Source: an uncultured Flavobacterium sp. (GTDB lineage Bacteria; Bacteroidota; Bacteroidia; Flavobacteriales; Flavobacteriaceae). Taken from it: a stretch of DNA of 64,000 nucleotides. The notes beneath the pieces were generated by a model, which did not search any database, was not told the DNA's origin, and worked only from the letters and a program-made list of their open reading frames with translations. Each line of letters begins with the position of its first letter. Within the stretch, counting starts at the first letter, position 1. Shown one piece after another: positions 34,998 to 51,980 of this stretch. The translations under genes were made by a program, and so were the position numbers. The DNA lies in NCBI GenBank assembly GCA_964461805.1, contig CAYWVV010000008.1, positions 1,410 through 65,409 on the forward strand. The letters are read 5' to 3'.

Positions 34998-36128
34998 TTA
35001 ATCAAACTCATTCAATCCATATAAAATCTCTTTCATTTTAGTGCCGTTAATTTCCACAGGTTTGTAAGCAATATTGAATTTATCAATGGCCACATCAATA
35101 TCTGCTTTGAGTTTTTTATATTCTAAAGGTAATTTAGTTTCACATTGTTTTTCGTTTTCGTAGCTATTTAAAATCACCTTAAACTTTTCATAGAATTTGC
35201 CACCTTGATCAATGAAGTTGTTATACATGCTAATAAATTGCAGTAGTCTATCAATAGGAAATTCTAAATTGACTTGCATTTTATATTGTTGCGTGCCTGT
35301 TGCCGTTTTCATTTTAGATAAATACTCCTCCATTTTTATAGTAACATTTTCCCAATCGTCATTGGTTCTACATTGTTCCAAAGTAGTGAAGTAATTTATG
35401 GGTTTGGTGTAATCTTTAAATAAAATTTCTATTTCGCTTTTCATTTTTTCATTGCTTTTTTGTAGAAAAGCCGTTTCAAAATAAATAGTATTTAAATCGT
35501 TTTGCATGCGTAAGGTGAAATCTAAAATACATTCTATATTACCAAGTTCTTTTTCTTTTTCATCTTTTGTTAATGATGAATTAAGCATATTTGTAAACGT
35601 TTGAATCACAGAAACAAATGTGTTTGTTCCTAAAATAGAAGTTAAGTCTAAACCTGTTTTTTTGTCTTTTTTAGAAGCAACTAGGTTTTTTAATTTTTCA
35701 AATTCAGGATACTGATTCGGATTCGAAATTTTATGGATCTCGTTAAAAGTTCTTATAGAAGCAAAGTGATGATCTAAACTCAAAACTTTTTCATATAAAA
35801 TCTTGATTATTTGTAAACCTTTTATATACCTAATCTTAGAGATATCACCAGAATTATCTTTTAGTAATTGTTTAATTTCAGAGTTAATTAGGTCTTTTTC
35901 AATTAATAGTTCTACTTTCTTTTTTGTTTTATGTGTAGCAAGAAGCGAATTATTAATGGTTTCCATTTTTTCAATTTTACGGTTAATTAGAGCTTCATAC
36001 TTTAAATTGATTGAACTTATTTCTAAAAGTAATTCTGTAATGATACTATTGGGATCTTTTTCTAAGTCGTTTGAAAACGCATAACTACAAAATAGAAATA
36101 TAAAGTATGTTAGAAAGCGTTTTTTCAT
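34998..36128 (-). CDS. Hypothetical secreted, predicted all-helical protein
   Basis: Signal peptide MKKRFLTYFIFLFCSYAFS. 376 aa, Lys/Glu/Leu-rich. No domain recognised. Confidence 0.6.
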   Translation of the reverse strand: MKKRFLTYFIFLFCSYAFSNDLEKDPNSIITELLLEISSINLKYEALINRKIEKMETINNSLLATHKTKKKVELLIEKDLINSEIKQLLKDNSGDISKIRYIKGLQIIKILYEKVLSLDHHFASIRTFNEIHKISNPNQYPEFEKLKNLVASKKDKKTGLDLTSILGTNTFVSVIQTFTNMLNSSLTKDEKEKELGNIECILDFTLRMQNDLNTIYFETAFLQKSNEKMKSEIEILFKDYTKPINYFTTLEQCRTNDDWENVTIKMEEYLSKMKTATGTQQYKMQVNLEFPIDRLLQFISMYNNFIDQGGKFYEKFKVILNSYENEKQCETKLPLEYKKLKADIDVAIDKFNIAYKPVEINGTKMKEILYGLNEFD

Positions 36129-36138
36129 AGTTTTAGAT

Positions 36139-36603
36139 TTAAATTTTACTAAATAGTTTCAATAGGATTATTGCTTTGTTATCAAAAAGTTTTATTGGAT
36201 ACATCCCACTTTTTATGGTTGGGTTTTTGGTGGTTATCTTTAAAAGATTTATGGTTTCAGAATTCAATGAAAAGTCATAATCTTGGTTAAAGTAGAATTT
36301 TTCTATTTCTGAAATAGTTTTCATTTCTTTTCCAAAAAGAAATTTTTGATCTTCAATTGTAAGCGCATCTGTTTTGATTGTAAGTTGTAATTCCGTTTCA
36401 GAAATTTTTAATAAATAAAACTTCTCTGCACTTGTATTTTTAGTAGTAGTCTCAATTGTACATAAACCTATTCCGCCTTTGCATTCTCTTCCTCTAATAT
36501 CAATTTCGAATTTATTTTCAGTTGTTTGCGCATTAATGATTACACTAAATAGTATCAATATGATTGTTGTGATTTTCATTTTTTTAGTTTTACTATGGTT
36601 CAC
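36139..36603 (-). CDS. Small secreted protein, CxGxGxC paralog A
   Basis: Signal peptide (an alternative start at 36579 gives MKITTIILILFSVIINAQ). IDIRGRECKGGIGLC motif; paralogous to 38425..38877. Confidence 0.55.
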   Translation of the reverse strand: MNHSKTKKMKITTIILILFSVIINAQTTENKFEIDIRGRECKGGIGLCTIETTTKNTSAEKFYLLKISETELQLTIKTDALTIEDQKFLFGKEMKTISEIEKFYFNQDYDFSLNSETINLLKITTKNPTIKSGMYPIKLFDNKAIILLKLFSKI

Positions 36604-36621
36604 ATTATTTTAATGTTTTTT

Positions 36622-36653
36622 AAAAAAGCGGTAAAATTTGTTTTACCGCTTTT
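36622..36653 (-). terminator. Hairpin with A/T runs inside the minus-strand gene set
   Basis: agcggtaaaa-tttg-ttttaccgct flanked by an A-run and a T-run. Lies just upstream of the 36603 gene. Confidence 0.5.
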
Positions 36654-36888
36654 ACTACTTAACTAAACAATTTAAACAAAACTCAACACGATTTTAAAAG
36701 CTCTTCATTAATTAGTAGATTAATTTGAGATCTAAAAGAGGTAGTTTTTTTTTGATTCAAGTTGAATTTTTTTTGAAATGTCTTAACATTTCAGGGCATA
36801 TATTTTAAAAAAAAAAGATCCATTTTAATGTTGAATGGCTTATATAAAATGTTGTTTTTTCGTCTGGATCTTTTTTTACTATATTTAT

Positions 36889-37662
36889 TTATTGTTGTAA
36901 ACTGATTTTATAACCAAGTTTTTGAAGACTATCTTTGATACCAACAAAATGATTTTTGCCATAAACAATGGCTATTTTAGCATTCTTGTTTTGATTGATT
37001 TTGTTTATAACAACACCATTTCTATAATGTGTAATAAACTCGTTAAACATTTGTTTGTCAATTTTATTCTTGCATTTATTTCGATCATAATTGTCAAATA
37101 GTTTTGTTTTTAAGTCGTACTCTTCAAGAATTATGTTTCCATATTTATTTTCATAGGCTCTTATCAATTCATCCATAGTTGCGTCTACATTTTCAGACAG
37201 CTTATTTTTCAAGCCTAAATCGGTTAAATTCGATTGAGGGACAAGGTTTTTTTTGATTTTAATTCCTTTTTCTTTAAAAAATTCGATATAATTTGTAGCA
37301 CCTTTTGCTGATAGACCTAATAAACCGAAAGCTTTTCTGAATTTTAAAATCATGGTTGTATCCATTATTTCTTGTATACTTGAATCATTACTTTTCATGT
37401 TATTTGTGAGTATCATTTCATAAAAAATTTTATACTTTAAATTTGTCAAAGAGTCTACTTTCTTTCTGACGTTTTTATAAAAATTTTCTTTTCCAATATG
37501 ATGCATTGGAATAATGATTATTTCATTTTCTCCTACTAATTTTTCAATCTTAGAAGTTTCATCATAAATTCCTTCTCTTTCAAAAAAGTTGTTCATAAGA
37601 TATGATTTGCAAGAAGTGGATACCAATGAGGTCACAGTTAAAAATAAAAGTAATTTTTTCAT
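36889..37662 (-). CDS. Lipoprotein, possibly TraB/GumN-family
   Basis: Lipobox VSTSC. IIIIPMHHIGKENFY and IAIVYGKNHFVGIKDSLQKLGYKI resemble the GTxHxG ... GxxHxxG...L...GY pattern of TraB/GumN proteins. Weak, by eye only. Confidence 0.4.
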   Translation of the reverse strand: MKKLLLFLTVTSLVSTSCKSYLMNNFFEREGIYDETSKIEKLVGENEIIIIPMHHIGKENFYKNVRKKVDSLTNLKYKIFYEMILTNNMKSNDSSIQEIMDTTMILKFRKAFGLLGLSAKGATNYIEFFKEKGIKIKKNLVPQSNLTDLGLKNKLSENVDATMDELIRAYENKYGNIILEEYDLKTKLFDNYDRNKCKNKIDKQMFNEFITHYRNGVVINKINQNKNAKIAIVYGKNHFVGIKDSLQKLGYKISLQQ

Positions 37663-37766
37663 ATAAAAATATTAGAATTAGAAACTTTTAAATTGATTTT
37701 AAATTTTAAGATTTTAGTCAGATTTATTAATTTATTATACTTTCTTGAGGTAATTAAATTTATTTG

Positions 37767-38372
37767 CTAAATTTTAAAAGCATTTAATATTTCTTTTTTT
37801 TCATCATTGTTTAGTTCCCAACTTTCTTGTAAATCATAATTTATTAAATAGTAATTTACTTTTATTCCTTTTTCTTTTGCTTGTTCTAATAGTTTTATCC
37901 ATTCAAAAGCTTTTTTTTTATTTGTTTTGCCTAAAAAGGTTGCCCAAGTAATTAAAACTGTAATTTCATTTAAAACAATTTCTTTATTTTTATCGTTGCT
38001 TAATAGAGGAATAAAGTCTTTTATGTTTTTGTTCTCAGATTTATTAAAATTTATGTTTTTTAAATCAGTTATAAAATCATCAACTTTTGCATTGCATTTC
38101 TCTGTGTTTTTTTTATAAGGAATAAAATTACCATTTTGATTAAAAAAATACGCATCAGGAATCGTAGAGTATTTTAATTCGTAACCTTTAGCCATTGTGA
38201 TGAAATCTTTAAAAAAATAAATTGATTTAGAATCAACGTTGTTTTTTTTTAAAAAATTATACAATTCATAATTTTTTTTAAAACTTGGATTTTTTATCCC
38301 ATAACTCATTTTTGTTAATGTTTTGCAATTTGTTAATAGGATAAAAAGCAGTAAAAATTGAATTTTTTTCAT
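37767..38372 (-). CDS. Hypothetical lipoprotein
   Basis: Lipobox LLTNC. 201 aa, no motif recognised. Confidence 0.55.
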   Translation of the reverse strand: MKKIQFLLLFILLTNCKTLTKMSYGIKNPSFKKNYELYNFLKKNNVDSKSIYFFKDFITMAKGYELKYSTIPDAYFFNQNGNFIPYKKNTEKCNAKVDDFITDLKNINFNKSENKNIKDFIPLLSNDKNKEIVLNEITVLITWATFLGKTNKKKAFEWIKLLEQAKEKGIKVNYYLINYDLQESWELNNDEKKEILNAFKI

Positions 38373-38424
38373 AGTTAAGAATTTAAATAAAGGTTACTTG
38401 AAAACTCAAGTAACCTTAAGAAAT

Positions 38425-38877
38425 TTAAAATGACACCGTATACAAACCGTTGTCTAATGTTTTAATTGCATACTCACCTTTTTTTATGATATAGCCTCTT
38501 TTTAGTTCTAATTTTTCACATACATTATCTGATAGACTATAATCTTCAGATATTGTTATTATTTCTGAAGAACCGAAGTGTTTTTTTAATATTGTTAATT
38601 GAGTTTTATTAAATTCCAATGAAAAAACTCCATTACCATAGTTTACTCCTGACATTTTATTGTCATCAATTTCTATTGAAACATCTGCATCACAAACTCC
38701 AAAGCCTTTGCAATCCTTTGATTTTCTACCCCAAGTAATATCAATGTTAATTCTTACTTTTAAGGTTTCAACAGTTGTGATTTTTAACTCAGGATTGGAA
38801 TTAGTCTTTAAGCTATTTGCATTTCCGCTAACACTTAACATTACTGTGGCAATTAAGCCAAATACCATTTTTTTCAT
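38425..38877 (-). CDS. Small secreted protein, CxGxGxC paralog B
   Basis: Start moved from 38988 to the internal ATG at 38877, giving signal peptide MKKMVFGLIATVMLSVSGNA. IDITWGRKSKDCKGFGVC motif. Confidence 0.55.
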   Translation of the reverse strand: MKKMVFGLIATVMLSVSGNANSLKTNSNPELKITTVETLKVRINIDITWGRKSKDCKGFGVCDADVSIEIDDNKMSGVNYGNGVFSLEFNKTQLTILKKHFGSSEIITISEDYSLSDNVCEKLELKRGYIIKKGEYAIKTLDNGLYTVSF

Positions 38878-39137
38878 TATATTTGTTTTTTTAAAATTAA
38901 TTGCAGTCAACTTAAGTACGCCAATACTGTTTATAAGTTCGACTGCTTTTTTTATAGTTGGAAATTTCGATATTAAAAGCAAAGCCAACTTTCTCTTTAC
39001 TCCTAATAAACAGTTTTTAAGAAATCTGATAATTCTATTTTTAGTTCATCATTTCTACTTGCAAGTTTTTTATTCTGAACATTGCAAAGAAATGGGAATT
39101 GCAATATAGAAAGCAAATTATCTAAGTCTGTTTTCGA

Positions 39138-39156
39138 GAATTTCGAGTCGAAATTC
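39138..39156. promoter_or_regulatory. Palindrome gaatttcga-g-tcgaaattc upstream of the TPR/AraC gene
   Basis: Perfect 9-bp arms. Embedded in tttcgag/tttcgag and cgaaatt/cgaaatt direct repeats (39131-39165). The same arms recur at 41001-41020. Confidence 0.4.
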
Positions 39157-39276
39157 CGAAATTTCATTTACTAGTGTGTTTAAGTTGTTGATATACAGTG
39201 GTTAAATTTAAATAAAATATTTTAGCTCAAACATAAGAAAAACATTACTTTTGGCTTTTTTTTAAATATTTATATA

Positions 39277-40968
39277 ATGAAAAGATGTTTTTATCTAAGC
39301 CTTTTGAGTTTTATACTCTTTACTTTTAAATTACAAGCACAAAATTTTAAAAAACCTCTTAACTCATTATCTTATGATGAATTGAAAGAAATTTTTTTTA
39401 AAAATGAAGGAAATATTGAAATTCAAAAAAAATATGCTAAAGCTTTTTTGAATAAAGCTAAAAACGAAAATGATACTCCAAAGATAGCTAGGGGTTACTA
39501 CTACTATTCCCTTTTATTTAGTGATAATAGAAAAATTGTTTATTTTGATAGTATTATTAACAATGTAAAATATCCACCTAGTGAAAAGAATTTTCCTTTT
39601 GTAGCTTATTTGGAAAAAGGGTATTTTTTAGCAGATAAGTATAGGTATAATGAAGCCATTAATAGTTATTTAGAGTTAGAAAAACTCGCTATTTCCAAGA
39701 ATATAAATTATTATTACAAAGCAAAATTTGCTATTGGTATTTTGAAGTCTGAAAAAATGGGAGAGGTTAAAGAGTCTCTTCCGTTATTTAAGGATTGTTA
39801 TTCTTTTTATAAGAGTCAAAAAAATAATTCAGAATTGACTTTTACCTATCAACTTTCAATATTTGCTTTGGCAGATTCTTACAAATCTTTAAAAAAAACG
39901 GATAGTTCTTCTTATTATAATAAGTTAGGTTATTTTGAAACTAAAAGATCCAAAAATGAATACTTAAACAATATTTTTATTCTTAATGAAGGAGCAAATC
40001 AAGTATTGGTAAATAATTTTAAGGCAACTTTAGATAGTGTTGAAAAAGCTTTACCATATATAATTAAGAATAAAGATAATAACAATACATTAGCCTCTTA
40101 TTATTACAGAGCGAAAGCTTATCAAGGTTTAGGAATTAAAATTAAAGCTTTAGAAAACTATAAAAAAGTCGATTCATTGTATAAGTTAAATTCTTTTATT
40201 TCTCCTGAATTTTCTGATGGATATAAATTTATAATTGATTATTATAAAGAGATTGGTGACAAAGAAAATCAATTAAAATTTTTAACAACTTATCTTGAAA
40301 TTCAAAACCGATTTCAAAAACAATATAAAGAATTATCTGTGAAACTTAAAAATGATTATGACTTGCCCAATCTAGTAAAAGATAAAGAGACGTTAATTAA
40401 ATCATTAAAAACAGACGAGAAAAAACACCTTTGGTTAATCATTTTTCTAATTGGTTTGGCCATATCTTTCATATCAATCAGTATTTATCAAAACCGATTA
40501 AAGAAAAAATATAAATTAAATTTTGAAAAAATTATCAGTCAAACTTCAAAACCTGAAATTCTTAATGAAGTTGCAATCAATCAGGTTCCAAAAAAAGAAA
40601 GCATGCTTTCAAGTAGTTTAGTAAAGGACATAACTGAAAAATTAGAAAATTTTGAAAAGGAAAAGTTGTATAAAAAGCAAGGTCTAAGTAATCAATATTT
40701 GGCAAACGAATTCAGTACAAATACGAAATACTTATCATTAGTTATCAATGAATATAAAAACAAAACTTTTATTAATTATATTAATGATTTGAGAATTGAT
40801 AATATCATTGAAGAACTAAAAGAAAATAAAAATCTCAGAAAATATACCATTGCTGCATTAGCAGAAGAAGCAGGATTCAATACGGCAGAATCCTTTTCTA
40901 ATGCCTTTTATAAGCGAACAGGATTAAAACCATCATTTTTTATTAAAGAATTAAGTAGTGTTAAATAG
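39277..40968 (+). CDS. Membrane-anchored TPR-repeat / AraC-family HTH regulator
   Basis: Signal peptide, ~370-aa TPR-like repeat region, TM helix LWLIIFLIGLAISFISISIY, C-terminal AraC HTH (YTIAALAEEAGFNTAESFSNAFYKRTGLKPSFF). Confidence 0.75.
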   Translation: MKRCFYLSLLSFILFTFKLQAQNFKKPLNSLSYDELKEIFFKNEGNIEIQKKYAKAFLNKAKNENDTPKIARGYYYYSLLFSDNRKIVYFDSIINNVKYPPSEKNFPFVAYLEKGYFLADKYRYNEAINSYLELEKLAISKNINYYYKAKFAIGILKSEKMGEVKESLPLFKDCYSFYKSQKNNSELTFTYQLSIFALADSYKSLKKTDSSSYYNKLGYFETKRSKNEYLNNIFILNEGANQVLVNNFKATLDSVEKALPYIIKNKDNNNTLASYYYRAKAYQGLGIKIKALENYKKVDSLYKLNSFISPEFSDGYKFIIDYYKEIGDKENQLKFLTTYLEIQNRFQKQYKELSVKLKNDYDLPNLVKDKETLIKSLKTDEKKHLWLIIFLIGLAISFISISIYQNRLKKKYKLNFEKIISQTSKPEILNEVAINQVPKKESMLSSSLVKDITEKLENFEKEKLYKKQGLSNQYLANEFSTNTKYLSLVINEYKNKTFINYINDLRIDNIIEELKENKNLRKYTIAALAEEAGFNTAESFSNAFYKRTGLKPSFFIKELSSVK

Positions 40969-41000: not shown

Positions 41001-41020
41001 CGAAATTCTTGAATTTCGAG
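41001..41020. promoter_or_regulatory. Palindrome cgaaattc-tt-gaatttcg(ag) upstream of the precursor gene
   Basis: Same half-sites as 39138-39156 in inverted order; shares the 10-mer GAATTTCGAG. Could also act as the regulator gene's terminator hairpin. Confidence 0.4.
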
Positions 41021-41052: not shown

Positions 41053-41060
41053 TAGGTTTG
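41053..41060 (+). promoter_or_regulatory. -7 box (TAggTTTG) for the precursor gene
   Basis: TAnnTTTG match, 25 nt before ATG 41086. Confidence 0.4.
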
Positions 41061-41085: not shown

Positions 41086-41247
41086 ATGAAAAAAGAAAAA
41101 AAATTCACATTGGAAAAATTTGAAGTTGCCAAATTAAAAAATTTGAAAAAGATCATTGGAGGAGATGTTACAAATGATGGCGGTACAGTTTTTACTACTA
41201 CAGATCTAACTAGTGTTAATAAAGATGGTTCAAATGGTAATTGTTAG
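41086..41247 (+). CDS. RiPP precursor peptide (GG-type leader + Ser/Thr-rich core), not in ORF track
   Basis: Manual translation gives MKKEKKFTLEKFEVAKLKNLKKIIGG-DVTNDGGTVFTTTDLTSVNKDGSNGNC*. Has its own promoter box, lies 12 nt upstream of the first S8 gene, and is followed on the same strand by the LanB genes. Confidence 0.65.
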   Translation: MKKEKKFTLEKFEVAKLKNLKKIIGGDVTNDGGTVFTTTDLTSVNKDGSNGNC

Positions 41248-41259
41248 TTTAATAAATTT

Positions 41260-42924
41260 ATGATATATATATTGAGGTTGGTTTTTCGATTGGTTGTTTT
41301 TGTTTGTCTATTATCATCTTGTGGTTCAAAGAAAAAAGTAGTTATAGATTCTAAATTCTATACTGAAAATTGGCATCACTTTGATTTTGAAAAAGACAAA
41401 ATTTACGGAATTTCATTACAAAAATTGTATAATGAAAACACCGTCAAAAAGAATTCAAATTCGATAATTGTTGCTGTTTTAGACACTCAAATAGATTTAA
41501 ATCAAGAAGATTTAAAAGATCAAATTTGGGTAAATAAAAAAGAAATTCCAAACAATAATATTGATGATGATAAAAATGGTTACGTTGATGATGTTAATGG
41601 ATGGAATTTTGTAGGAAAACCTGATGGAGGGTATTTTTCATATGGGAATTTCGAGTATACTAGATTTGTAAAAAAGTGGGATGTTTATTTTAAAAACAAG
41701 AAAACTGTTGGAGTAGATTCTTTGGAAGTTTTTGAAGAATATAAAAGAGCACAAGCAAAACTAGAGAAGTCTATTAAATATTATACTGGTTGGAAAAAAT
41801 CTTTAGATTTTAGAATTAAACATTATCAACTTGTTGAAGATACAATTAATTATTTTTTTCCAAAAAAAGATTACACAGTTGCCAAATTAGATAGTTTGTA
41901 TCAGAAATTTAAAATTAATGATAAAACTTTTAAGCAAAGAAGAGATGATAATGATTTGGATTTGGGGGCTTTAATTTATTATAAAAAAACTGATTTTGAA
42001 ACAGGTATAAAAGTTATTGGGGACCATATAGATCCGAGCAATCAATTTGACTCAATCATTAATAAAAACTTAAACATCAATTTTGTTGATAGAGAAATGA
42101 TTAAAGATAATCCAAATAAGTTAGAAAAAGGTTATGGGAATAATAAGTTAAATCTGTATAAAAATTTAAATTACCATAGTACGGTAGTTTCCGGTACTAT
42201 TGCAGGTATAAGAAATAATAACATTGGAGTAAAGGGTTTTCATGATAATATTAAGATAATGCCATTAAGTACCTCGATTTCTGGCGACGAGCATGATAAA
42301 GATATCGCTAATGCCATTTATTATGCAGTTGATAACGGAGCTAAGATTATTAATATGTCTTTTGGTAAAGAATTTTCTCTAGAAAAAAAATGGACATTTG
42401 ATGCTTATAAATATGCAGAAGAACATAATGTTTTAATTGTTCATATTTCAGGAAACGACAAGTTTGATATTGATAAAAACCCATATTACCCAAATGATAA
42501 TGATTATATCAATAAAAAAGAAATAGTTGGTAATTTTATTAATGTCGGATCTATATCTAAAAGAACAGATAGTACAATGGTTTCAAAATTTTCTAATTAC
42601 GGTAAAGAAAATGTTGATATTTTTGCGCCAGGTGAAGAAATTCATGTTGCGAAACCTTATAATGAATATGGCTATGATTCTGGGACTTCACTAGCAGGGC
42701 CAATGGTTTCTGGAACTGCAGCTTTAATTTGGTTATATTATCCAAATCTTACCGTTCATCAAGTGAAAAATATAATTTTAGAATCGGGTATAACAATTGA
42801 TAAAATGGTTGTTAAACCTGGGACAAAAGAAGAAATGGTTCCGTTTTCGGATTTATGTAAAACGGGTAAAGTGTTGAATACTTATAACGCTATGCAATTG
42901 GCTAAAAGAATCAGTAAGAAATAA
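41260..42924 (+). CDS. S8 (subtilisin-like) serine peptidase lipoprotein, copy 1
   Basis: Lipobox LLSSC. Catalytic Asp (VAVLDTQID), His (HSTVVSGTIAG), Ser (GTSLAGPMVSG). DDDKNGYVDDVNGWNF Ca-binding-like insert. Confidence 0.85.
   Translation: MIYILRLVFRLVVFVCLLSSCGSKKKVVIDSKFYTENWHHFDFEKDKIYGISLQKLYNENTVKKNSNSIIVAVLDTQIDLNQEDLKDQIWVNKKEIPNNNIDDDKNGYVDDVNGWNFVGKPDGGYFSYGNFEYTRFVKKWDVYFKNKKTVGVDSLEVFEEYKRAQAKLEKSIKYYTGWKKSLDFRIKHYQLVEDTINYFFPKKDYTVAKLDSLYQKFKINDKTFKQRRDDNDLDLGALIYYKKTDFETGIKVIGDHIDPSNQFDSIINKNLNINFVDREMIKDNPNKLEKGYGNNKLNLYKNLNYHSTVVSGTIAGIRNNNIGVKGFHDNIKIMPLSTSISGDEHDKDIANAIYYAVDNGAKIINMSFGKEFSLEKKWTFDAYKYAEEHNVLIVHISGNDKFDIDKNPYYPNDNDYINKKEIVGNFINVGSISKRTDSTMVSKFSNYGKENVDIFAPGEEIHVAKPYNEYGYDSGTSLAGPMVSGTAALIWLYYPNLTVHQVKNIILESGITIDKMVVKPGTKEEMVPFSDLCKTGKVLNTYNAMQLAKRISKK
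42604..42907 (+). repeat. 304-bp perfect direct repeat, copy 1 (3' end of S8 gene 1)
   Basis: Compared block by block with 44264-44567: identical. Flanking mismatches at 42603/44263 and 42908/44568. Confidence 0.95.
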
Positions 42925-42931
42925 TAAATCG

Positions 42932-44587
42932 ATGAGAAAAATTTTGTTTTTATTGTTGCTTTTTATTTCGTGCTCAACCAATAAAAAATTTGTAGCACCT
43001 AATGATTCTAATTTTGTCAATAAAAATTGGCAGCATCAAGTTTCAGAAAACAATAGTGTTAAAAGCACATCTTTGCAGAAATTTTATTCCGAAAAATTTA
43101 AAAAAAGTACTTTAAACTCAATAATTGTCGCTGTTTTAGACAGTCAAATAGATTTAAATCATGAAGATTTAAAAGATCAGATTTGGGTAAATACGAAAGA
43201 AATAGCCAACAACAATATTGATGATGACAACAATGGATACATAGATGATGTTAATGGTTGGAATTTTATAGGAAAACCAAATGGGGGTTATTTTAGATAT
43301 TGGAATTTTGAATATTCGAGAATTGTTAGTTTAAAAAAAGAATATTTGAAATTAAATATTAAAACACCTTCAGATTCTTTGCTTTTTTTTAATGAATATT
43401 CGAAAATTGATGAAAAACATAAAGAGGAATTAGTTTATCATAAAAATTGGTTCAAATCATTAGAATATGCAGTAAAAATTCGATCAAAAGCCATAGATAC
43501 TTTAAAGTATTTTTTTCCAAAAGGAGATTATACTTATGAACGATTAGATAGTTTGTACCAAAAAAGTAAATTAAATGAAAAAACATTTAAACAAAGAAGA
43601 GATGCTAATGATGAAGATTTAGGGGCTTTAATAAATTCTGTGATGATAGCTATTCAAATGGGGCTTAAACAAAATGAACAATTATTTGAATTAAAAAATC
43701 AATTAGATTCTATTGTGTTTAGAAATTTAAATATTGATTTTGATGACAGAAAATATATTTGTGATAATCCTGATATTTTAGAAAAAGGGTATGGTAATAA
43801 TAAATTGAATAGTAACATATATCAATTAACTCATTCTACAGAAGTTTCATCAATTATAGCAGGACAAAGAAACCAAATTGGAGTAAATGGATTTCATAAT
43901 AATATTAAAATAATGCCTTTATGTATTTCTACTTCTGGAGATGAGTACGATAAAGATATTGCTATGGCAGTATATTATGCTGTGGATAATGGTGCTAAAG
44001 TGATTAATATGTCTTTTGGAAAAGAATTTTCATTAAATCAAAAATGGGTTTCTGACGCTTTTAAATATGCAGAAGAACACAATGTATTGTTAGTGCATGG
44101 TTCGGGTAATAATAGTTTTAATGTTGATAAGAATTCCTATTATCCAAGTGATATTGATTATGTGAGAAATAAAGAAAAAGAAGTAGTAGCCAATTTTATT
44201 AATGTAGGTTCCGTTTCGAAAAGAACAGATAGTACTATGGTTTCTCCGTTTTCTAATTATGGGAAAGAAAATGTTGATATTTTTGCGCCAGGTGAAGAAA
44301 TTCATGTTGCGAAACCTTATAATGAATATGGCTATGATTCTGGGACTTCACTAGCAGGGCCAATGGTTTCTGGAACTGCAGCTTTAATTTGGTTATATTA
44401 TCCAAATCTTACCGTTCATCAAGTGAAAAATATAATTTTAGAATCGGGTATAACAATTGATAAAATGGTTGTTAAACCTGGGACAAAAGAAGAAATGGTT
44501 CCGTTTTCGGATTTATGTAAAACGGGTAAAGTGTTGAATACTTATAACGCTATGCAATTGGCTAAAAAAATTAGTAAGCAGAAATAA
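42932..44587 (+). CDS. S8 (subtilisin-like) serine peptidase lipoprotein, copy 2
   Basis: Lipobox LFISC. Asp (VAVLDSQID), His (HSTEVSSIIAG), Ser (GTSLAGPMVSG). Tandem paralog of copy 1. Confidence 0.85.
   Translation: MRKILFLLLLFISCSTNKKFVAPNDSNFVNKNWQHQVSENNSVKSTSLQKFYSEKFKKSTLNSIIVAVLDSQIDLNHEDLKDQIWVNTKEIANNNIDDDNNGYIDDVNGWNFIGKPNGGYFRYWNFEYSRIVSLKKEYLKLNIKTPSDSLLFFNEYSKIDEKHKEELVYHKNWFKSLEYAVKIRSKAIDTLKYFFPKGDYTYERLDSLYQKSKLNEKTFKQRRDANDEDLGALINSVMIAIQMGLKQNEQLFELKNQLDSIVFRNLNIDFDDRKYICDNPDILEKGYGNNKLNSNIYQLTHSTEVSSIIAGQRNQIGVNGFHNNIKIMPLCISTSGDEYDKDIAMAVYYAVDNGAKVINMSFGKEFSLNQKWVSDAFKYAEEHNVLLVHGSGNNSFNVDKNSYYPSDIDYVRNKEKEVVANFINVGSVSKRTDSTMVSPFSNYGKENVDIFAPGEEIHVAKPYNEYGYDSGTSLAGPMVSGTAALIWLYYPNLTVHQVKNIILESGITIDKMVVKPGTKEEMVPFSDLCKTGKVLNTYNAMQLAKKISKQK
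44264..44567 (+). repeat. 304-bp perfect direct repeat, copy 2 (3' end of S8 gene 2)
   Basis: See copy 1; offset is exactly 1660 nt. Confidence 0.95.
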
Positions 44588-44589: not shown

Positions 44590-46809
44590 ATGAAAATAAA
44601 CTCTGTTGGCTGTTTTGATACTTTTGTATTGCGAACGCCTTTGTTTCCCATAAATTATTATACTAATCTTCTTAAAGATTATTCAAGCGATAAGTTGTAT
44701 GAGGTTTTAGAAAATGATCTTGTCAAAGATGCTGTTAAAATTGCTTCTCCTGAACTTCTAAGAGAATTGGAGAAGTTGTCGAATAATCCAAATCAAATTG
44801 ATCCCGATAAAAAAATAAATTTAGAGTTAGCCTTGTTAAAATATATAGCAAGGCTTTCTTCTAGAGCTACACCTTTTGGGGTTTTTGCTGGTTGTACTAC
44901 TGGTTTTCTAGCAAATGAAACTTTCATTCAAATTGATTCTGTCGAAAAGCATGAAGTTTTTACGCAATTTGACATGCATTATTGGATTAGTCTGCTACAG
45001 GATATTTCTAAAAATGCTTCTTTTCAAAAGAATTTAATTTACTATCCAAATTCATCATTGTATAAAATCGCCGATTTTTACAGATACATCGAATATGAAT
45101 ATGTAAATAAAAAAAGAGAACATACTTTGTCTTCTTTTAGGGTAAACCCTGTGATAGATACGCTTATTGAGAATTCTAAAATAGGTTTAAAATTCAATGA
45201 ATTGATTGATTTAATTATTGATGATGCATCTGAGATTGAAGAAGCCAGTGAATTTGTTTTGGAATTAATTAATAATCAAATTTTAGTCAGTGAACTTGAT
45301 GCAACGATTACAGGTGGTTTTGATATTAAGAGAGTTGTTGAAATCATTGAAAAAAGTACTGAATTTAATCTAGAATGCAATATTTTAAAAGAAATGTCCT
45401 TGCTTTTAGAAGGTAAAGTTAATCTGACTGATTCAAAAAATCAATTTGATAGTTTAAAAAAGTTGGTCGAGAAATTTGATACAAAATTTGAAGAAAAGTA
45501 TGTTTTGCAAACGGATTTATATAAAAAAACGACTTGCGCTTCATTGAATAAAAAAGTGAGTTTTAAAATTACAAAAGCACTTCAATTCTTAAGTAAAATC
45601 CGAGAAAATAAAGAAAATCCGAACTTAACAAATTTCAAAAATACTTTTCAAAGAAGATATGAAACTAGAGAAATGCCTCTATCTGTCGTTTTAGATTCCG
45701 AATTAGGAATTGGATACCTTCAAAACACTAAAATGAATGATACACATTCTGTATTAGATAAGTTTTCTTTCGATAGTAGTCGGAAATCAAATGCCAATTC
45801 TGAAGAATGGACAAAAACAGATTATATTTTAGAGAAAAAATTAAAAACTGCGATTGCTACTTCTAAAGATATAATTGTATTAGAGGATAAGGATTTTGAT
45901 TTTGTTGAGAAAGAAGATTACAATATACCAAGTACATTTTCTGTAATGGTAGAAATTCTATCTACAAATGAGGAAGAATTTATTGCTATTGAATCATCAG
46001 GCAATTTTAGCGCTGCAAAACTTATTGGAAGATTTTGTAATGGTGACCAAGCCATTCACAATTTGGCCAACGAAATCATTCAAAAAGAAGCGGAGTTACA
46101 CCCAAATAAAATTTTAGCAGAGATTGTTCATATTCCACAATCCAGAACGGGAAATGTATTAAGACGACCTTGTTTACGAGAACACGAAATTCCATATTTA
46201 GGGAATAGTGTTTTGCCAAAAGCTAAACAAATTGCTATAGAGGATTTGTATGTGTCAATAAAGAATAATAAAGTGGTTTTAAAATCGAAGTCACTTAATA
46301 AAGAAATCATTCCTTGCTTATCCAATGCACATAATTATTCCTATAATTCGTTGCCGATATACCATTTTCTGTGTGATTTGCAAGGGCAATCATTGCATTG
46401 TATTCCAAGTTTCAGTTGGGGGATCTTAGAAAATCATCATGCCTATTTTCCGAGAGTTGTCTATTCTGGTATTGTCCTATCAAAAGCAAAATGGGTATTT
46501 GAATATATAGAACTTGAAAAATTCGCTAAAGCAATATTCACAAGTGCATTACAAAACGAGTTTATAGTTTGGAAAGAAAAGATGAAATTGCCACAATATG
46601 TGAATTTAGTAAATGGTGATAACACTTTGTTGTTAGATTTGAATATAGAAATTGGAATACAATTATTTTTAAAAACTATTAAACCCAACTCGAAAATAAT
46701 TTTAGAAGAGTTTTTGTTTGATGATAATTCTGTAGTTAGAGATAAAGATTATAATTCGTTTGCTAATCAGTTCATTTTATCCTTTTATAAACTGCATAAA
46801 AATGAATAG
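44590..46809 (+). CDS. Lantibiotic dehydratase, N-terminal (glutamylation) part of a split LanB
   Basis: 739 aa. FVLRTPLFP at the N-terminus and RLSSRATPFGVFAG are the conserved LanB N-domain motifs as I recall them. Starts 2 nt after the S8-2 stop. Confidence 0.8.
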   Translation: MKINSVGCFDTFVLRTPLFPINYYTNLLKDYSSDKLYEVLENDLVKDAVKIASPELLRELEKLSNNPNQIDPDKKINLELALLKYIARLSSRATPFGVFAGCTTGFLANETFIQIDSVEKHEVFTQFDMHYWISLLQDISKNASFQKNLIYYPNSSLYKIADFYRYIEYEYVNKKREHTLSSFRVNPVIDTLIENSKIGLKFNELIDLIIDDASEIEEASEFVLELINNQILVSELDATITGGFDIKRVVEIIEKSTEFNLECNILKEMSLLLEGKVNLTDSKNQFDSLKKLVEKFDTKFEEKYVLQTDLYKKTTCASLNKKVSFKITKALQFLSKIRENKENPNLTNFKNTFQRRYETREMPLSVVLDSELGIGYLQNTKMNDTHSVLDKFSFDSSRKSNANSEEWTKTDYILEKKLKTAIATSKDIIVLEDKDFDFVEKEDYNIPSTFSVMVEILSTNEEEFIAIESSGNFSAAKLIGRFCNGDQAIHNLANEIIQKEAELHPNKILAEIVHIPQSRTGNVLRRPCLREHEIPYLGNSVLPKAKQIAIEDLYVSIKNNKVVLKSKSLNKEIIPCLSNAHNYSYNSLPIYHFLCDLQGQSLHCIPSFSWGILENHHAYFPRVVYSGIVLSKAKWVFEYIELEKFAKAIFTSALQNEFIVWKEKMKLPQYVNLVNGDNTLLLDLNIEIGIQLFLKTIKPNSKIILEEFLFDDNSVVRDKDYNSFANQFILSFYKLHKNE

Positions 46810-47683
46810 AGTTTTTAGTTTAGGAAGTGAATGGGTATATTTTAAAATATATGCCGGTTATAAAATTTCCGAAGTCATTCTTTTGGATTACTTGAATGAG
46901 AAAATCGAGTTGTTGCTTACGGAAAATGTAATTAAAAAATGGTTTTTTATTCGCTATAACGATTCGGATAGCCATATTAGAATTCGATTTCAATTGAATA
47001 ACAATGAAGATGTTTTTCAAATTATAAAAGAACTCAATCCTGTTTTTGAAGATTTGTTGCAAAAAAATTTCATCTGGAAAGTTCAAAACGAAACCTATTT
47101 AAGAGAAATAGAACGCTACGGTTTAAATACTATGGAAGATTCTGAAACGTTATTTTATTTTGATAGTAAAATGATAATGGACTATTTAGTTTTGAAAAAT
47201 GATTTCCAAAATGAGAAAACTCAGTTGCTATTTAGTTTCCTTTCTATAGATGCTTTTTTAAATGCATTTTCTTTGTCAACTTCAGAAAAAGTAATATTTT
47301 TTGATGATTTACAGCAAGGATTCAAAAAAGAATTTAATGCTACAAAAGTTTTAAAAAGCGAATTAGATAAACATTATAGAGGATTTGAAAATGAGATTTC
47401 AAATTGTATGAATGCAATTTCAAATCATGAATTATTACCGCTTTATGAAATAATTGAAAAAAAATCCTGCAACATAAATCCTGTTGTTCAAGTAATCAAA
47501 CAAAACTTAGAAATCAATTTAAATGCCTTTCTTTCCAGCCACATCCACATGATGATAAACAGGCAGTTCACTTCTCGTCAAAGAGAATACGAAACCCTAA
47601 TTTATGATCATTTGTATAGGTATTATAAAACGTGTTTTTATAGGAATACTTATACTATTAGTTTAATTAATGCTACTACATAA
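46802..47683 (+). CDS. Split-LanB C-terminal (SpaB_C / thiopeptide-type bacteriocin biosynthesis, glutamate-elimination) domain protein
   Basis: Start set at ATG 46802 (MNRVFSLGSEWVYFKIY...), overlapping the upstream stop as ATGAATAG. WFFIRYNDSDSHIRIRF is typical of this domain. The track start at 46760 would be an unlikely 14-aa extension. Confidence 0.75.
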   Translation: MNRVFSLGSEWVYFKIYAGYKISEVILLDYLNEKIELLLTENVIKKWFFIRYNDSDSHIRIRFQLNNNEDVFQIIKELNPVFEDLLQKNFIWKVQNETYLREIERYGLNTMEDSETLFYFDSKMIMDYLVLKNDFQNEKTQLLFSFLSIDAFLNAFSLSTSEKVIFFDDLQQGFKKEFNATKVLKSELDKHYRGFENEISNCMNAISNHELLPLYEIIEKKSCNINPVVQVIKQNLEINLNAFLSSHIHMMINRQFTSRQREYETLIYDHLYRYYKTCFYRNTYTISLINATT

Positions 47684-47706: not shown

Positions 47707-47736
47707 CGCTACCGCGCGAATCCTTTCGCGTGGTTT
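47707..47736. repeat. REP-like hairpin, left (cgctaccgcgcgaatcctttcgcgtggttt)
   Basis: Imperfect internal palindrome ccgcgcga/tcgcgtgg. Inverted partner lies downstream of the RAYT. Confidence 0.7.
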
Positions 47737-47761: not shown

Positions 47762-48328
47762 ATGAGTAGAAATTATAAATTCCATAATTCAGAAGGTGTT
47801 TATTTTGTAAGTTTCGCAGTTGTAGGTTGGTTAGATGTGTTTACAAGAAATGAATATAAAGATTTGATTATTGAAAGTTTAGAATTTTGTCAACAAAGTA
47901 AAGGAATGGAAATACATGCTTGGTGTATTATGACAAATCATGTACATTTGATTTTTAGAAGTGTTGAGAATCAAAAACCTGAGCTTTTATTAGGTGATTT
48001 TAAAAGATTTACAAGTAGAAGTGTCATTAAAGCAATACAGGAAAACTCCAAAGAAAGTAGAAAAGAATTTTTATTAGATTATTTTAAAAAAGAAGCTAAA
48101 AAAACTTCTAATACGAGTAATTTTCAATTTTGGCGACACGATAATAAACCAATAGAATTATGGAGTAACGAAGTAATACAACAAAAAATCAATTATATCC
48201 ACAATAATCCAGTTGAAGAAGGAGTTGTATTTAGACCTGAAGATTATAAATACAGTAGTGCATCAGACTATGCCAGAGAAAATGGTTTATTGGGTAATGT
48301 TGTAGTGTTTCAGTATTTTAAATTATGA
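47762..48328 (+). CDS. REP-associated tyrosine transposase (RAYT, IS200/IS605-like Y1 HUH)
   Basis: 188 aa. HUH motif MTNHVHLIF and C-terminal catalytic-Tyr region PEDYKYSSASDY. Confidence 0.8.
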   Translation: MSRNYKFHNSEGVYFVSFAVVGWLDVFTRNEYKDLIIESLEFCQQSKGMEIHAWCIMTNHVHLIFRSVENQKPELLLGDFKRFTSRSVIKAIQENSKESRKEFLLDYFKKEAKKTSNTSNFQFWRHDNKPIELWSNEVIQQKINYIHNNPVEEGVVFRPEDYKYSSASDYARENGLLGNVVVFQYFKL

Positions 48329-48521
48329 AACCACGCGAAAGGATTCGCGCGGTAGCGGGGATAATAGTGTTTCAGACCCTGAAGAAATCAGAGCTGTTTA
48401 TAATCAAAATAGAGCTCGAGCACTTGAAGGAAGAGTCCCAAAAACGACATATGCTCAAGAAAGGATTGACCCTAAAAAGTTACAGAATCCACCAAATAAT
48501 AAAAACATAATGATTAAATAA
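48306..48521 (+). pseudogene. Possible 3' gene remnant with no start codon, stop overlapping the next ATG
   Basis: Frame is open 48306-48518 (...SDPEEIRAVYNQNRARALEGRVPKTTYAQERIDPKKLQNPPNNKNIMIK*) with no ATG near its 5' end. Its TAA (48519-48521) overlaps the ATG at 48521. A second frame (track ORF 48325..48510) is also open. Confidence 0.25.
48329..48357. repeat. REP-like hairpin, right (aaccacgcgaaaggattcgcgcggtagcg)
   Basis: Begins at the nucleotide after the RAYT stop codon. Confidence 0.7.
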
Positions 48522-49258: not shown

Positions 49259-49285
49259 ACCACGCGAAAGGATTCGCGCGGCAGC
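49259..49285. repeat. Third REP copy (accacgcgaaaggattcgcgcggcagc)
   Basis: Same orientation as the right REP; differs at 1-2 positions. Confidence 0.6.
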
Positions 49286-50321: not shown

Positions 50322-50342
50322 ACACATAGAATAAATAAAAAA

Positions 50343-50927: not shown

Positions 50928-50938
50928 AAAAAAATCAA

Positions 50939-50946
50939 TAAATTTG
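50939..50946 (+). promoter_or_regulatory. -7 box (TAaaTTTG) upstream of coxIII
   Basis: TAnnTTTG match, 25 nt before the ATG. Confidence 0.35.
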
Positions 50947-50971
50947 GGAACTTTTTAACAATAACTATTTT

Positions 50972-51958: not shown

Positions 51959-51980
51959 TTTTTAGTAAAAAGAAAATATT

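What the first reader, a model, noticed from the sequence alone, without database searches (positions are those of the whole stretch)
41086..41247. Unannotated 53-aa precursor: Lys-rich GG leader plus anionic Thr-rich core ending in Cys
The gene falls below the ORF-track cutoff. Codon-by-codon translation gives MKKEKKFTLEKFEVAKLKNLKKIIGG | DVTNDGGTVFTTTDLTSVNKDGSNGNC. The leader is amphipathic and Lys-rich and ends in IIGG, like the K-L-x-K-x-x-I-x-G-G leaders of Bacteroidetes bacteriocin-like/GG-type precursors. The 27-aa core contains 6 Thr (including a TTT run), 2 Ser, 4 Gly, 4 Asp, 4 Asn, 1 Lys and a single terminal Cys, so its net charge is about -3. A TAggTTTG box lies 25 nt upstream and the first S8 gene starts 12 nt downstream. 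An alternative reading is possible. In PEARL-type small-LanB pathways the C-terminal residue of a scaffold peptide is the site of chemistry, so the terminal Cys may be the modified position rather than a ring-forming nucleophile.
Basis: seen in the sequence. Interest (0 to 1): 0.8.

Follow-up and report, generated by a model that had tools for sequence, protein, structure and literature searches.

The report
Flavobacterium lanthipeptide-like precursor without a cyclase gene
The 53-codon ORF is a real, conserved gene for a peptide that is chemically modified after translation, made in a widespread Flavobacterium operon that has a two-piece lantibiotic dehydratase and secreted proteases but no ring-closing enzyme, so its chemistry is a testable variant of a known antibiotic-like peptide class.

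Summary
Window 41086-41247 (+) encodes MKKEKKFTLEKFEVAKLKNLKKIIGG|DVTNDGGTVFTTTDLTSVNKDGSNGNC. The same small gene sits at the same operon position in 20 related loci. Its leader is under strong purifying selection (pN/pS about 0.1) and its core is hypervariable.

It is the first gene of an operon with two S8 lipoprotein peptidases and a split class I dehydratase (Lant_dehydr_N 739 aa, Lant_dehydr_C). A membrane-anchored AraC-type regulator gene lies upstream. A conserved palindrome, CGAAATTC-NN-GAATTTCG, and an invariant TAGGTTTG box precede the precursor.

The five-gene module recurs in many Flavobacterium species in different chromosomal contexts. No LanC gene or C39-type export gene lies in the 64-kb window. 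No LanC lies within about 10 kb in any related locus.

A profile search found 182 related peptide clusters. Their cores are anionic and Thr-rich. About 28% have no Cys. Of 156 Cys, 118 have Ser at -3 or -4 (21 expected), which suggests a small lanthionine ring.

The PEARL reading is rejected. An elimination domain is present, and the Cys is C-terminal in only 27 of 122 Cys-containing cores.

Best reading: a precursor of a pinensin-like RiPP with no cyclase in the cluster. This is a new variant of a known kind.

The parts
39138..39166 (.). Cluster of half-sites (GAATTTCG-AGT-CGAAATTC-CG-AAATTTCA) upstream of the regulator gene; a putative autoregulatory operator.
   Evidence: A 2-mismatch match to the palindrome lies at 39149-39166 (sequence). 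In L014 the exact palindrome lies upstream of the AraC gene. Its function is inferred.
39277..40968 (+). AraC-family (HTH_18) one-component regulator of 563 aa. It has an N-terminal signal-like segment, an extracytoplasmic domain of about 360 aa, one transmembrane helix (residues about 385-405) and a C-terminal HTH (475-555).
   Evidence: Pfam HTH_18, E = 4.9e-12. There is a single strong hydrophobic segment. This gene always lies directly upstream of the precursor in loci long enough to show it. A TPR_12 hit on orthologues is faint.
41001..41018 (.). Perfect 8+2+8 palindrome CGAAATTC-TT-GAATTTCG, 34 nt upstream of the -7 box; a putative binding site of the AraC-type regulator.
   Evidence: An exact match lies between the regulator gene and the precursor in 16 of the 19 loci held at the time of the search. 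In L014 the exact copy lies upstream of the regulator gene and only a degenerate copy precedes the precursor. L017 and L019 carry 1-2 mismatch versions. About 0.6 three-mismatch matches are expected by chance in the window. The 2-nt spacer argues against an RNA hairpin. Binding is inferred.
41053..41060 (+). TAGGTTTG, a Bacteroidetes-type -7 promoter element (TAnnTTTG), followed by an A-rich TAAAA-like stretch before the ATG.
   Evidence: It is invariant (TAG[G/A]TTTG) and at a fixed distance in 10 aligned loci. It is not significant from occurrence alone. The promoter consensus is taken from my own knowledge of Bacteroides and Flavobacterium promoters.
41086..41247 (+). Precursor peptide gene (LanA-like). 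The leader is 41086-41163 (26 aa, ending IIGG), the core is 41164-41244 (27 aa) and the stop is 41245-41247.
   Evidence: It is the only match to the family profile in the window (E = 8e-28).
41260..42924 (+). S8 subtilase 'a' of 554 aa, with a lipoprotein-type signal (…LLSSC) and an insert of about 200 aa between the catalytic Asp and His.
   Evidence: Pfam Peptidase_S8, 146 bits. Clade a is present in all five loci with 'TTT'-type cores and in none of the three 'ITD..SSxxC' loci. The lipobox was read by eye.
42932..44587 (+). S8 subtilase 'b' of 551 aa, a paralogue 68% identical to 'a'. The last 119 aligned residues differ from those of 'a' at only three positions, which suggests gene conversion or a recombination joint.
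   Evidence: 42515-42814 against 44175-44474, 94% nt identity. Its clade is the one found in loci with the other core type.
44590..46809 (+). Split LanB, glutamylation part (Lant_dehydr_N, 739 aa).
   Evidence: Pfam PF04738, 431 bits. Residues 10-724 align to residues 9-727 of the full-length LanB-type structure 9g04 (E = 2.5e-42).
46802..47683 (+). Split LanB, glutamate-elimination part (Lant_dehydr_C / TIGR03891). Its ATG overlaps the upstream stop by 8 nt (ATGAATAG).
   Evidence: Pfam PF14028, 212 bits, and TIGR03891, 205 bits. It aligns to 9g04 residues 764-1020 and MibB residues 815-940. The overlap is shown.
47711..47734 (+). GC-rich hairpin directly after the operon. It may terminate transcription, but it is a REP-like repeat that belongs to the adjacent RAYT gene.
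   Evidence: Terminator-like hit. An identical inverted copy lies at 48330-48353 and a 1-mismatch copy at 49259-49282, flanking the RAYT gene at 47762-48328.

Best explanation
The ORF encodes a LanA-type precursor peptide of a class-I-lanthipeptide-like RiPP operon specific to Flavobacterium.

Shown by the data: the peptide is a conserved, translated gene with a conserved GG leader and a hypervariable, anionic, Thr-rich core. It is co-transcribed, or at least tightly linked, with two extracytoplasmic S8 peptidases and a split LanB dehydratase.

Inferred steps:
1. In the cytoplasm the leader (F-x-L-x-K-x5-L…GG) docks on the 739-aa glutamylation protein. That protein uses Glu-tRNA(Glu) to esterify core Thr and Ser residues. 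The 294-aa elimination protein then removes glutamate, giving Dhb and Dha (up to 8 sites, including the conserved T-V-F-T-T-T stretch).
2. Cys27 adds to Dha23 (S-N-G-N-C) to close one small C-terminal lanthionine ring. This happens either spontaneously or through a cyclase encoded elsewhere, because the cluster has none.
3. The modified precursor crosses the inner membrane by a transporter that is not in the operon.
4. The lipoprotein S8 peptidases (S9 prolyl oligopeptidases in some relatives) remove the leader and/or trim the variable N-terminal part of the core.
5. The membrane-anchored AraC-type regulator binds the conserved palindrome upstream of the precursor promoter and of its own gene, and so controls expression.

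The biological activity of the product is unknown.
For: Gene reality: 23 homologues; a near-invariant leader against a variable core; leader pN/pS of about 0.1 with saturated synonymous change.

Operon membership: the order AraC, small ORF, S8 (one or two) and/or S9, Lant_dehydr_N, Lant_dehydr_C is seen in close relatives. It is also seen in named species in different chromosomal contexts: F. bernardetii, F. facile, F. urocaniciphilum, F. hydatis, F. jejuense and Flavobacterium sp. 1.

Split but complete LanB.

Leader type: it matches the LxLxKx5L…GG motif of Bacteroidetes class I LanAs (PMC7268733).

Ring inference: across 168 family cores, 118 of 156 Cys have Ser at -3 or -4, against 21±4 in shuffles (maximum 39 of 2000). 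Ser is otherwise rare, at 6.6%.

No cyclase: no LANC_like hit on any ORF of at least 100 aa in the 64-kb window, with a few internally overlapping or short ORFs not scanned, and none in the annotated flanks of the related loci.

Protease link: the S8 clade follows the core type, and the S8 proteins carry lipoprotein signals.

Regulation: conserved palindrome and -7 box.
Against: No expression, mass-spectrometry or enzymology data exist. The dehydration sites and the ring are inferred. A LanC elsewhere in the genome cannot be excluded with these tools. About 28% of family cores lack Cys, and two of these were verified next to the same S8 and LanB genes (L018 and L020). A thioether ring is therefore not the family's common denominator and may be dispensable. 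A GG leader normally implies a C39 transporter, which is absent from the operon and from the window, so which protease cuts at GG is unknown. The S8 proteins resemble generic subtilases rather than solved LanP enzymes. The S8-to-core association rests on 8 loci and on adjacent, hence linked, genes.
Confidence: 0.75

Rival explanations
1. It is a canonical class I lanthipeptide. The precursor and split LanB are as described above, but cyclisation is carried out by a LanC encoded elsewhere in the genome, and export with GG cleavage by an unlinked C39 ABC transporter. The cluster is then simply fragmented.
For: The SSxxC signature is very strong. All characterised Bacteroidota class I systems use a LanC: PinC, PedC, ChmC and RuiC. 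Unclustered lanthipeptide maturation genes are documented (PMC8960859, listed). C39 transporters lie near the module in L016 and L018.
Against: More than 12 independent loci, in at least five different chromosomal contexts, never place a LanC within about 10 kb. About 28% of family members have no Cys and so need no cyclase. The C39 transporters in L016 and L018 come with their own GG peptides.
Confidence: 0.3
2. It is a PEARL-type pathway. The peptide would be a scaffold whose C-terminal Cys is extended or transformed by an aminoacyl-tRNA-dependent LanB-like ligase and then released by the proteases.
For: The Cys is C-terminal in the window peptide and in 27 family members. Proteases are abundant in the cluster.
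Against: An elimination-domain protein is always present and translationally coupled, and the two ORFs together rebuild a full LanB. The Cys is followed by 1-17 residues in 95 of 122 Cys-containing cores, and 46 cores have no Cys. No oxidase, decarboxylase or other tailoring gene typical of pearlin pathways is in the operon.
Confidence: 0.03
3. It is an unmodified double-glycine bacteriocin or pheromone that merely neighbours a LanB system acting on another substrate.
For: There are weak, sub-threshold leader similarities to ComC and to TIGR04149 GG peptides.
Against: It is the only small conserved ORF in the module and the only family match in the window. The module of five genes moves as a unit. 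Cores are 22% Ser and Thr, with conserved T-x-T, TTT and SSxxC motifs. The leader carries the LanB-associated LxLxKx5L motif.
Confidence: 0.04
4. It is a chance ORF in an AT-rich intergenic region, not a gene.
For: It is short and lies in an A/T-rich context. TAnnTTTG boxes are common.
Against: It is conserved in frame across loci with LanB identity as low as 47%. pN/pS is about 0.1. There are 182 profile hits.
Confidence: 0.01

Closest known systems
Pinensin biosynthetic cluster of Chitinophaga pinensis (pinA, pinB1, pinB2, pinC, pinT), a class I lanthipeptide with a split LanB
   Same: It is from Bacteroidota. The LanB is split into glutamylation and elimination proteins. The precursor is small and ribosomal with a short core.
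   Different: The window operon has no PinC-like LanC and no PinT-like transporter. It has one or two S8 lipoprotein peptidases (S9 in relatives) and a dedicated membrane-anchored AraC regulator. Sequence relatedness to PinB1 and PinB2 was not measured because no pinensin sequences were available here.
Bacteroidota class I lanthipeptides with LxLxKx5L…GG leaders (RODEO survey; Ped15.1/15.2, ChmA, RuiA)
   Same: They share the leader motif and Gly-Gly end, and dehydration by a Glu-tRNA-dependent LanB.
   Different: Those clusters were found through their LanC and usually carry a C39 transporter. Their cores have several Cys and rings. Here there is no LanC and no C39 gene, cores have zero or one Cys (rarely two), and the cores are anionic.
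Split LanB dehydratases of thiopeptide and goadsporin pathways (for example TbtB/TbtC, GodF/GodG); from my own knowledge
   Same: They have separate glutamylation and elimination proteins. The dehydroamino acids are installed without any LanC. Goadsporin keeps its Dha residues in a linear peptide. The TIGR03891 domain is shared.
   Different: The window has no YcaO or azole-forming genes and no pyridine synthase. The leader and core are unrelated.
Two-step leader removal in GG-leader lanthipeptides (for example lichenicidin LicT plus the S8 protease LicP), and prolyl oligopeptidase FlaP in class III flavipeptin; from my own knowledge
   Same: A GG leader occurs together with an extracytoplasmic subtilase or prolyl oligopeptidase. 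This suggests trimming of residues between the GG site and the mature N-terminus. The S8 type follows the core type rather than the conserved leader.
   Different: No GG-cleaving transporter is in the cluster. The S8 proteins here are lipoproteins with a large insert and are not close to solved LanP enzymes by sequence.
PEARL / pearlin pathways (small LanB-like peptide aminoacyl-tRNA ligases)
   Same: They share the Lant_dehydr_N fold and use an aminoacyl-tRNA.
   Different: PEARLs lack an elimination partner and act on the scaffold's C-terminus. Here an elimination protein is present and the C-terminus is not conserved.

Membership tests
Class I lanthipeptide system (LanA/LanB/LanC) | LanB glutamylation domain (PF04738) | tested here: met
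   Window 44590-46809 scores 431 bits and covers the whole profile. It aligns to LanB-type structure 9g04 over residues 10-724.
Class I lanthipeptide system (LanA/LanB/LanC) | Glutamate-elimination domain (PF14028) | tested here: met
   It lies on a separate, overlapping ORF at 46802-47683: 212 bits on PF14028 and 205 bits on TIGR03891. The motifs FFIRY..D..HIRIRF, REIERYG and HIHMMINR are retained. Their catalytic role is assumed from my knowledge of NisB and was not tested.
Class I lanthipeptide system (LanA/LanB/LanC) | LanC cyclase (PF05147) encoded with the dehydratase | tested here: not met
   No LANC_like hit on any scanned ORF of at least 100 aa in the 64-kb window, nor within about 10 kb in L001-L019. 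The rest of the genome could not be searched.
Class I lanthipeptide system (LanA/LanB/LanC) | Core peptide with Ser/Thr and Cys placed to form (Me)Lan rings | tested here: met
   The window core has 8 Ser/Thr and S23-x3-C27. Family-wide, Ser is enriched at Cys-3 and Cys-4 (118 of 156 against 21 expected). However, 46 of 168 cores have no Cys.
Class I lanthipeptide system (LanA/LanB/LanC) | Thioether cross-link in the mature product | not testable with these tools
   This needs mass spectrometry with thiol alkylation, or GC-MS of the hydrolysate.
Bacteroidetes class I LanA leader type | LxLxKx5L motif and a C-terminal Gly-Gly | tested here: met
   The window leader reads F7-x-L9-x-K11-x5-L17…G25G26. 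Many relatives have L at the first position. The motif is as described in PMC7268733.
Pinensin-like BGC | pinB1/pinB2 split dehydratase together with pinC and pinT | tested here: not met
   A split dehydratase is present. No LanC homologue and no ABC or C39 transporter lie in the operon or the window. The BGC composition is taken from PMC10112250 and PMC9680876.
PEARL / pearlin pathway | LanB-like ligase without an elimination domain or partner | tested here: not met
   An elimination protein is encoded immediately downstream with an 8-nt overlap, in every locus.
PEARL / pearlin pathway | Chemistry on a conserved C-terminal residue of the scaffold peptide | tested here: not met
   The last Cys is C-terminal in only 27 of 122 Cys-containing cores. 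C-termini are not conserved.
Thiopeptide pathway | Azoline-forming YcaO/cyclodehydratase and a [4+2] pyridine synthase, in addition to a split LanB | tested here: not met
   There is no YcaO or second TIGR03891-type protein in the window. Only one Lant_dehydr_C ORF is present.
TIGR04149 rSAM-modified GG peptides of Bacteroidetes | HMM score above cutoff and an adjacent radical SAM maturase | tested here: not met
   The score is 15.4 bits against a cutoff of 25. No radical SAM gene is in the operon.
LanP-type leader peptidase | Subtilase encoded with the precursor that removes the leader | tested here: inconclusive
   Two S8 genes with an Asp/His/Ser triad lie directly after the precursor. The S8 clade follows the core type. 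The closest solved structures are generic subtilases. The cleavage site is unknown.

The most novel reading that the evidence does not exclude
The module may define a family, found across Flavobacterium, of cyclase-independent class-I-type RiPPs. A split LanB would install Dhb and Dha in short anionic peptides. Members with Cys would close a minimal SSxxC lanthionine ring without any dedicated cyclase, and about a quarter would be purely linear dehydropeptides. Maturation would be by periplasmic lipoprotein S8 or S9 proteases matched to the core type. The whole unit would be switched by a membrane-spanning AraC regulator through a conserved palindrome, possibly as a peptide-sensing autoinduction circuit rather than an antibiotic.
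Probability: 0.35. Interest if true: 0.7.

Novelty: new variant of a known kind. Interest (0 to 1): 0.55.

Why it matters
Class I lanthipeptides are defined by a LanB-LanC pair, and genome-mining tools and surveys find them through LanC. This operon type is common in Flavobacterium. There are 298 LanB_N homologues at E <= 1e-20 and 182 precursor clusters. It would be missed or mislabelled by such rules.

If cyclisation is spontaneous or absent, the family gives a natural test of how much a cyclase is needed for small Dha-Cys rings. It would also provide a set of linear poly-dehydro peptides from Gram-negative bacteria, for which very few RiPP products are known.

The conserved operator and membrane AraC regulator give a direct handle for switching on otherwise silent clusters. 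The finding is still a genome-mining lead, not a new principle.

Tried and rejected
- **PEARL reading:** rejected, because an elimination partner is present and the C-terminus is not conserved.
- **Thiopeptide, rSAM (TIGR04149) and cyanobactin (PatA/PatG) readings:** only sub-threshold or shared-domain hits, and the partner enzymes are absent.
- **Non-coding RNA or tRNA at the locus:** none found.
- **Additional precursor copies in the window:** none found.
- **'Pherotype' idea, that the regulator's sensor domain co-varies with the core type:** not supported. The window regulator is 82-85% identical to those of loci with the other core type, but only 73-76% identical to those of three loci with the same core type (L004, L009, L010); the L009 gene appears disrupted, so only its 346-aa C-terminal ORF could be compared.
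- **Terminator after LanB_C:** it turned out to be a REP-like repeat that flanks the neighbouring RAYT gene, so it is only weak evidence for the operon end.
- **Sigma-70 promoter scan:** uninformative, with 59 hits found and 60 expected.
- **TAnnTTTG occurrence alone:** not significant.
- **Sequence similarity of the S8 proteins to solved LanP enzymes:** none stood out.
- **Literature:** six searches found no description of this LanC-less Flavobacterium module. One phrase search on 'no LanC' returned only noise. PMC9845027 is not held.

Full report
**Observation.** Window 41086-41247 (+) translates to MKKEKKFTLEKFEVAKLKNLKKIIGGDVTNDGGTVFTTTDLTSVNKDGSNGNC, followed by a stop. The core composition is 6 T, 2 S, 4 G, 4 D, 4 N, 3 V, 1 K, 1 F, 1 L and 1 C, with a charge of -3. 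TAGGTTTG lies at 41053-41060, 25 nt upstream of the ATG, and the gap to the next gene (ATG at 41260) is 12 nt.

**Is it a gene?** A protein search returned 23 homologues of 49-68 aa.
- In the alignment the first 26 residues are almost invariant: M1, K6, F7, K11, V14-A15-K16-L17-K18, I23 and G25-G26. The part after GG is hypervariable apart from one invariant Cys.
- Nei-Gojobori counts on the last 21 leader codons of 11 distinct loci give pS of 0.5-1.0 and pN of 0.04-0.15. This shows strong purifying selection on the protein sequence.
- A profile of the family matches only this ORF among all 1180 stop-to-stop segments of the window (E = 8e-28).
- No Rfam family or tRNA overlaps the region.

**Neighbourhood.** From upstream to downstream, on the + strand:
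- 39277-40968 encodes an AraC-family regulator (HTH_18) with one central transmembrane helix.
- 41260-42924 and 42932-44587 encode two S8 subtilases.
- 44590-46809 encodes Lant_dehydr_N (739 aa, 431 bits).
- 46802-47683 encodes Lant_dehydr_C / TIGR03891.

The two dehydratase ORFs overlap by 8 nt. They align to residues 9-727 and 764-1020 of one full-length LanB-type structure (9g04), and also to MibB. Together they are therefore a split but complete class I dehydratase, as in pinensin and thiopeptide pathways. Both S8 proteins begin with lipoprotein-type signals (…LLSSC and …FISC, read by eye). They are 68% identical, and their last 119 aligned residues differ at only three positions. No scanned ORF of at least 100 aa in the 64-kb window hits LANC_like or Peptidase_C39; a few short or internally overlapping ORFs were not scanned.

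**Conservation of the module.** Contigs that carry close homologues of the peptide show the same gene order: AraC, small ORF, S8 (one or two), Lant_dehydr_N, Lant_dehydr_C.
- A genome scan with the dehydratase names the organisms as Flavobacterium: F. bernardetii, F. facile, F. urocaniciphilum and two MAGs.
- More distant dehydratase homologues (47-52% identity) have the same five-gene module in quite different chromosomal surroundings. These are F. hydatis, Flavobacterium sp. 1, F. jejuense and MAG 5N022. The module is therefore a functional unit and not a relic of local synteny.
- The protease complement varies. F. urocaniciphilum has an S9 prolyl oligopeptidase in place of S8. F. bernardetii has S8, S8 and S9. 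L006 and L009 have S8 and S9. F. jejuense has a DinB/MST-domain protein.
- None of these loci has a LanC within about 10 kb.

**Size and character of the peptide family.** A profile search of 1.84 billion representative proteins gave 182 hits at E <= 1e-3. I analysed 168 cores that could be cut after GG.
- They are rich in Thr (16%), Asp (12%), Gly (11%) and Asn (10%), with a mean net charge of -2.
- The Cys count is 0 in 46 cores, 1 in 97, 2 in 19 and more than 2 in 6.
- Of 156 Cys, 118 have Ser at -3 or -4. Shuffled cores give 21±4, with a maximum of 39 in 2000 shuffles. Ser reaches 56% at -4 and 46% at -3, against 6.6% overall.
- The last Cys is C-terminal in only 27 of 122 Cys-containing cores.
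- A mid-core motif, [DN]-x-x-T-[IVL]-[TFYL] (as in …DDTVFTTT… and …DQTITD…), occurs 26 times against 2 expected.
- Two Cys-less precursors were checked in context. One lies in a full module in Flavobacterium sp. 1. The other lies directly before an orthologous S8 gene.

**Regulation.** Aligning the region between the regulator gene and the precursor across 10 loci shows two conserved elements: the TAG[G/A]TTTG box at a fixed distance from the ATG, and a perfect palindrome, CGAAATTC-NN-GAATTTCG, at window 41001-41018.
- The exact palindrome is present in 17 of the 19 loci held at that point. In 16 of them it lies between the regulator gene and the precursor. L017 and L019 carry 1-2 mismatch versions.
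- A related cluster of half-sites lies upstream of the regulator gene itself, at 39138-39166. In F. urocaniciphilum (L014) the exact copy is at that position.
- The 2-nt spacer makes an RNA hairpin unlikely.
- I infer that this is the operator of the adjacent AraC-type regulator, with autoregulation. The regulator's topology suggests that it senses something outside the cytoplasm: a signal-like N-terminus, about 360 residues, one transmembrane helix and then the HTH.

**Mosaic structure.**
- Compared with locus L001, the window's regulator is 98% identical, its precursor 96% and its S8a 95%. Its dehydratase halves are only 73% identical.
- S8b and both dehydratase halves are closest (74-84%) to loci whose precursor has the other core type.
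- In a comparison of all S8 proteins over the non-converted part, clade a occurs in all five loci with 'T-x-x-TTT' cores and in none of the three loci with '…ITD..SSxxC' cores. Those three carry clade b.
- This fits proteases that recognise the variable part of the peptide. The genes are adjacent, however, so linkage alone could give the same pattern.

**Mechanism.** The best-supported reading is a LanA-type precursor. The leader recruits the split LanB, core Thr and Ser are dehydrated through glutamylation and elimination, and Cys27 adds to Dha23 to form one small C-terminal ring. After export, the extracytoplasmic S8 enzymes remove or trim the leader.
- Dehydration is inferred from the enzyme family.
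- The ring is inferred from the SSxxC statistics.
- Closure without a cluster-encoded cyclase is inferred from the consistent absence of LanC and from the Cys-less members. An unlinked LanC remains a serious rival, which I put at about 0.3.
- Export and cleavage at GG are unexplained, because no C39 transporter is in the operon.
- A two-step scheme would reconcile the GG leader with the S8 and S9 genes: an unlinked transporter would cut at GG, and S8 or S9 would trim the variable N-terminal segment, as LicP does for lichenicidin (my own knowledge). This scheme is untested.

**Comparison with what is known.** The nearest characterised system is the pinensin cluster (split PinB1/PinB2, PinC, PinT). 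The leader belongs to the LxLxKx5L…GG type described for Bacteroidetes class I LanAs.
- The operon meets the dehydratase, precursor and leader criteria of class I lanthipeptides but fails the LanC criterion. I therefore do not file it as a canonical member.
- It works like the dehydration half of that pathway. In lacking a cyclase it resembles the split-LanB step of the thiopeptide and goadsporin pathways.
- PEARL, thiopeptide, rSAM-GG and cyanobactin memberships were tested and not met.
- I found no paper in the held library that describes this LanC-less Flavobacterium module. That is absence from the searched library, not proof that nobody has described it.

**Verdict.** The finding is a new variant of a known kind: a solid genome-mining lead with an open and testable question about cyclase-independent maturation. 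It is of moderate interest (0.55).

Noticed in passing
window 41001-41018 and 39138-39166: A conserved perfect palindrome, CGAAATTC-NN-GAATTTCG, lies ahead of the precursor promoter. A related cluster of half-sites lies ahead of the AraC regulator gene. Together they are a likely operator and autoregulation pair. The exact palindrome is present in 17 of 19 related loci.
   Followed up: yes
window 41260-44587: The two S8 genes are 68% identical paralogues, and their last 119 aligned residues differ at only three positions (42515-42814 against 44175-44474, 94% nt identity). The operon is mosaic: the regulator, precursor and S8a are 95-98% identical to L001, but the dehydratase is only 73% identical. 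This indicates recombination or gene conversion between cluster variants.
   Followed up: partly
window 47711-47734, 48330-48353, 49259-49282 and ORF 47762-48328: A REP-associated tyrosine transposase (RAYT; NF047646, 92 bits) is flanked by identical inverted GC-rich 24-nt hairpins, with a third copy 900 nt further on. This insertion directly after the RiPP operon is absent at that spot in L001 and L004.
   Followed up: partly
L016 14147-20078: Directly downstream of the module in Flavobacterium sp. 5N022 lies what looks like a second RiPP set. It consists of a GG-leader peptide (…AEVVGG|KGQADCICKEDW…), an ATP-grasp protein, a SPASM-domain protein, a C39-ABC transporter and a HlyD-like protein.
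   Followed up: no
L018 1-3923: In Flavobacterium sp. 1 the module lies next to a C39-ABC transporter, an LcnD/HlyD protein and several small GG-leader ORFs that resemble class II bacteriocins. Its own LanA-like core (FGKDEDVVTVTETKTIIVKVTR) has no Cys.
   Followed up: partly
L019 8347-9477: In F. jejuense the position of the S8 gene is taken by a 376-aa protein with a C-terminal DinB/mycothiol-S-transferase-like domain (PF04978, 28 bits against a cutoff of 27). This is a thiol-transferase fold, which is intriguing in a cluster that lacks a cyclase. An unexamined gap of 520 nt follows it.
   Followed up: no
L006 14999-17140, L009 13247-15283, L012 14726-16885, L014 7810-9975: S9 prolyl oligopeptidases recur as extra or replacement proteases in the module. 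The presence of Pro in the cores only loosely follows their presence.
   Followed up: partly
window 34998-38988 (- strand) and 32724-34808 (+): A run of conserved ORFs (694, 376, 154, 257, 201 and 187 aa) between deoC and the regulator has no Pfam match. They are syntenic in close relatives but absent next to the module in distant species, so they are probably not part of it.
   Followed up: partly
window 338-5453 and 49404-54514: Cytochrome oxidase genes lie on both sides of the region: cytochrome c, CoxII and CoxI at the start, and CyoE, CoxIII, CoxIV, SCO1 and DUF420 after the RiPP operon. SprA (2409 aa, T9SS), gcvH and the RiPP module lie between them.
   Followed up: no
PMC11613158: In Chryseobacterium sp. 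PMSZPI, an adjacent pair of genes annotated 'thiopeptide-type bacteriocin biosynthesis' and 'lantibiotic dehydratase family' is listed with values of about +2.7 to +3.0 in an expression table under spreading (gliding) conditions. This hints that split-LanB clusters in Flavobacteriia are expressed and regulated by condition.
   Followed up: no
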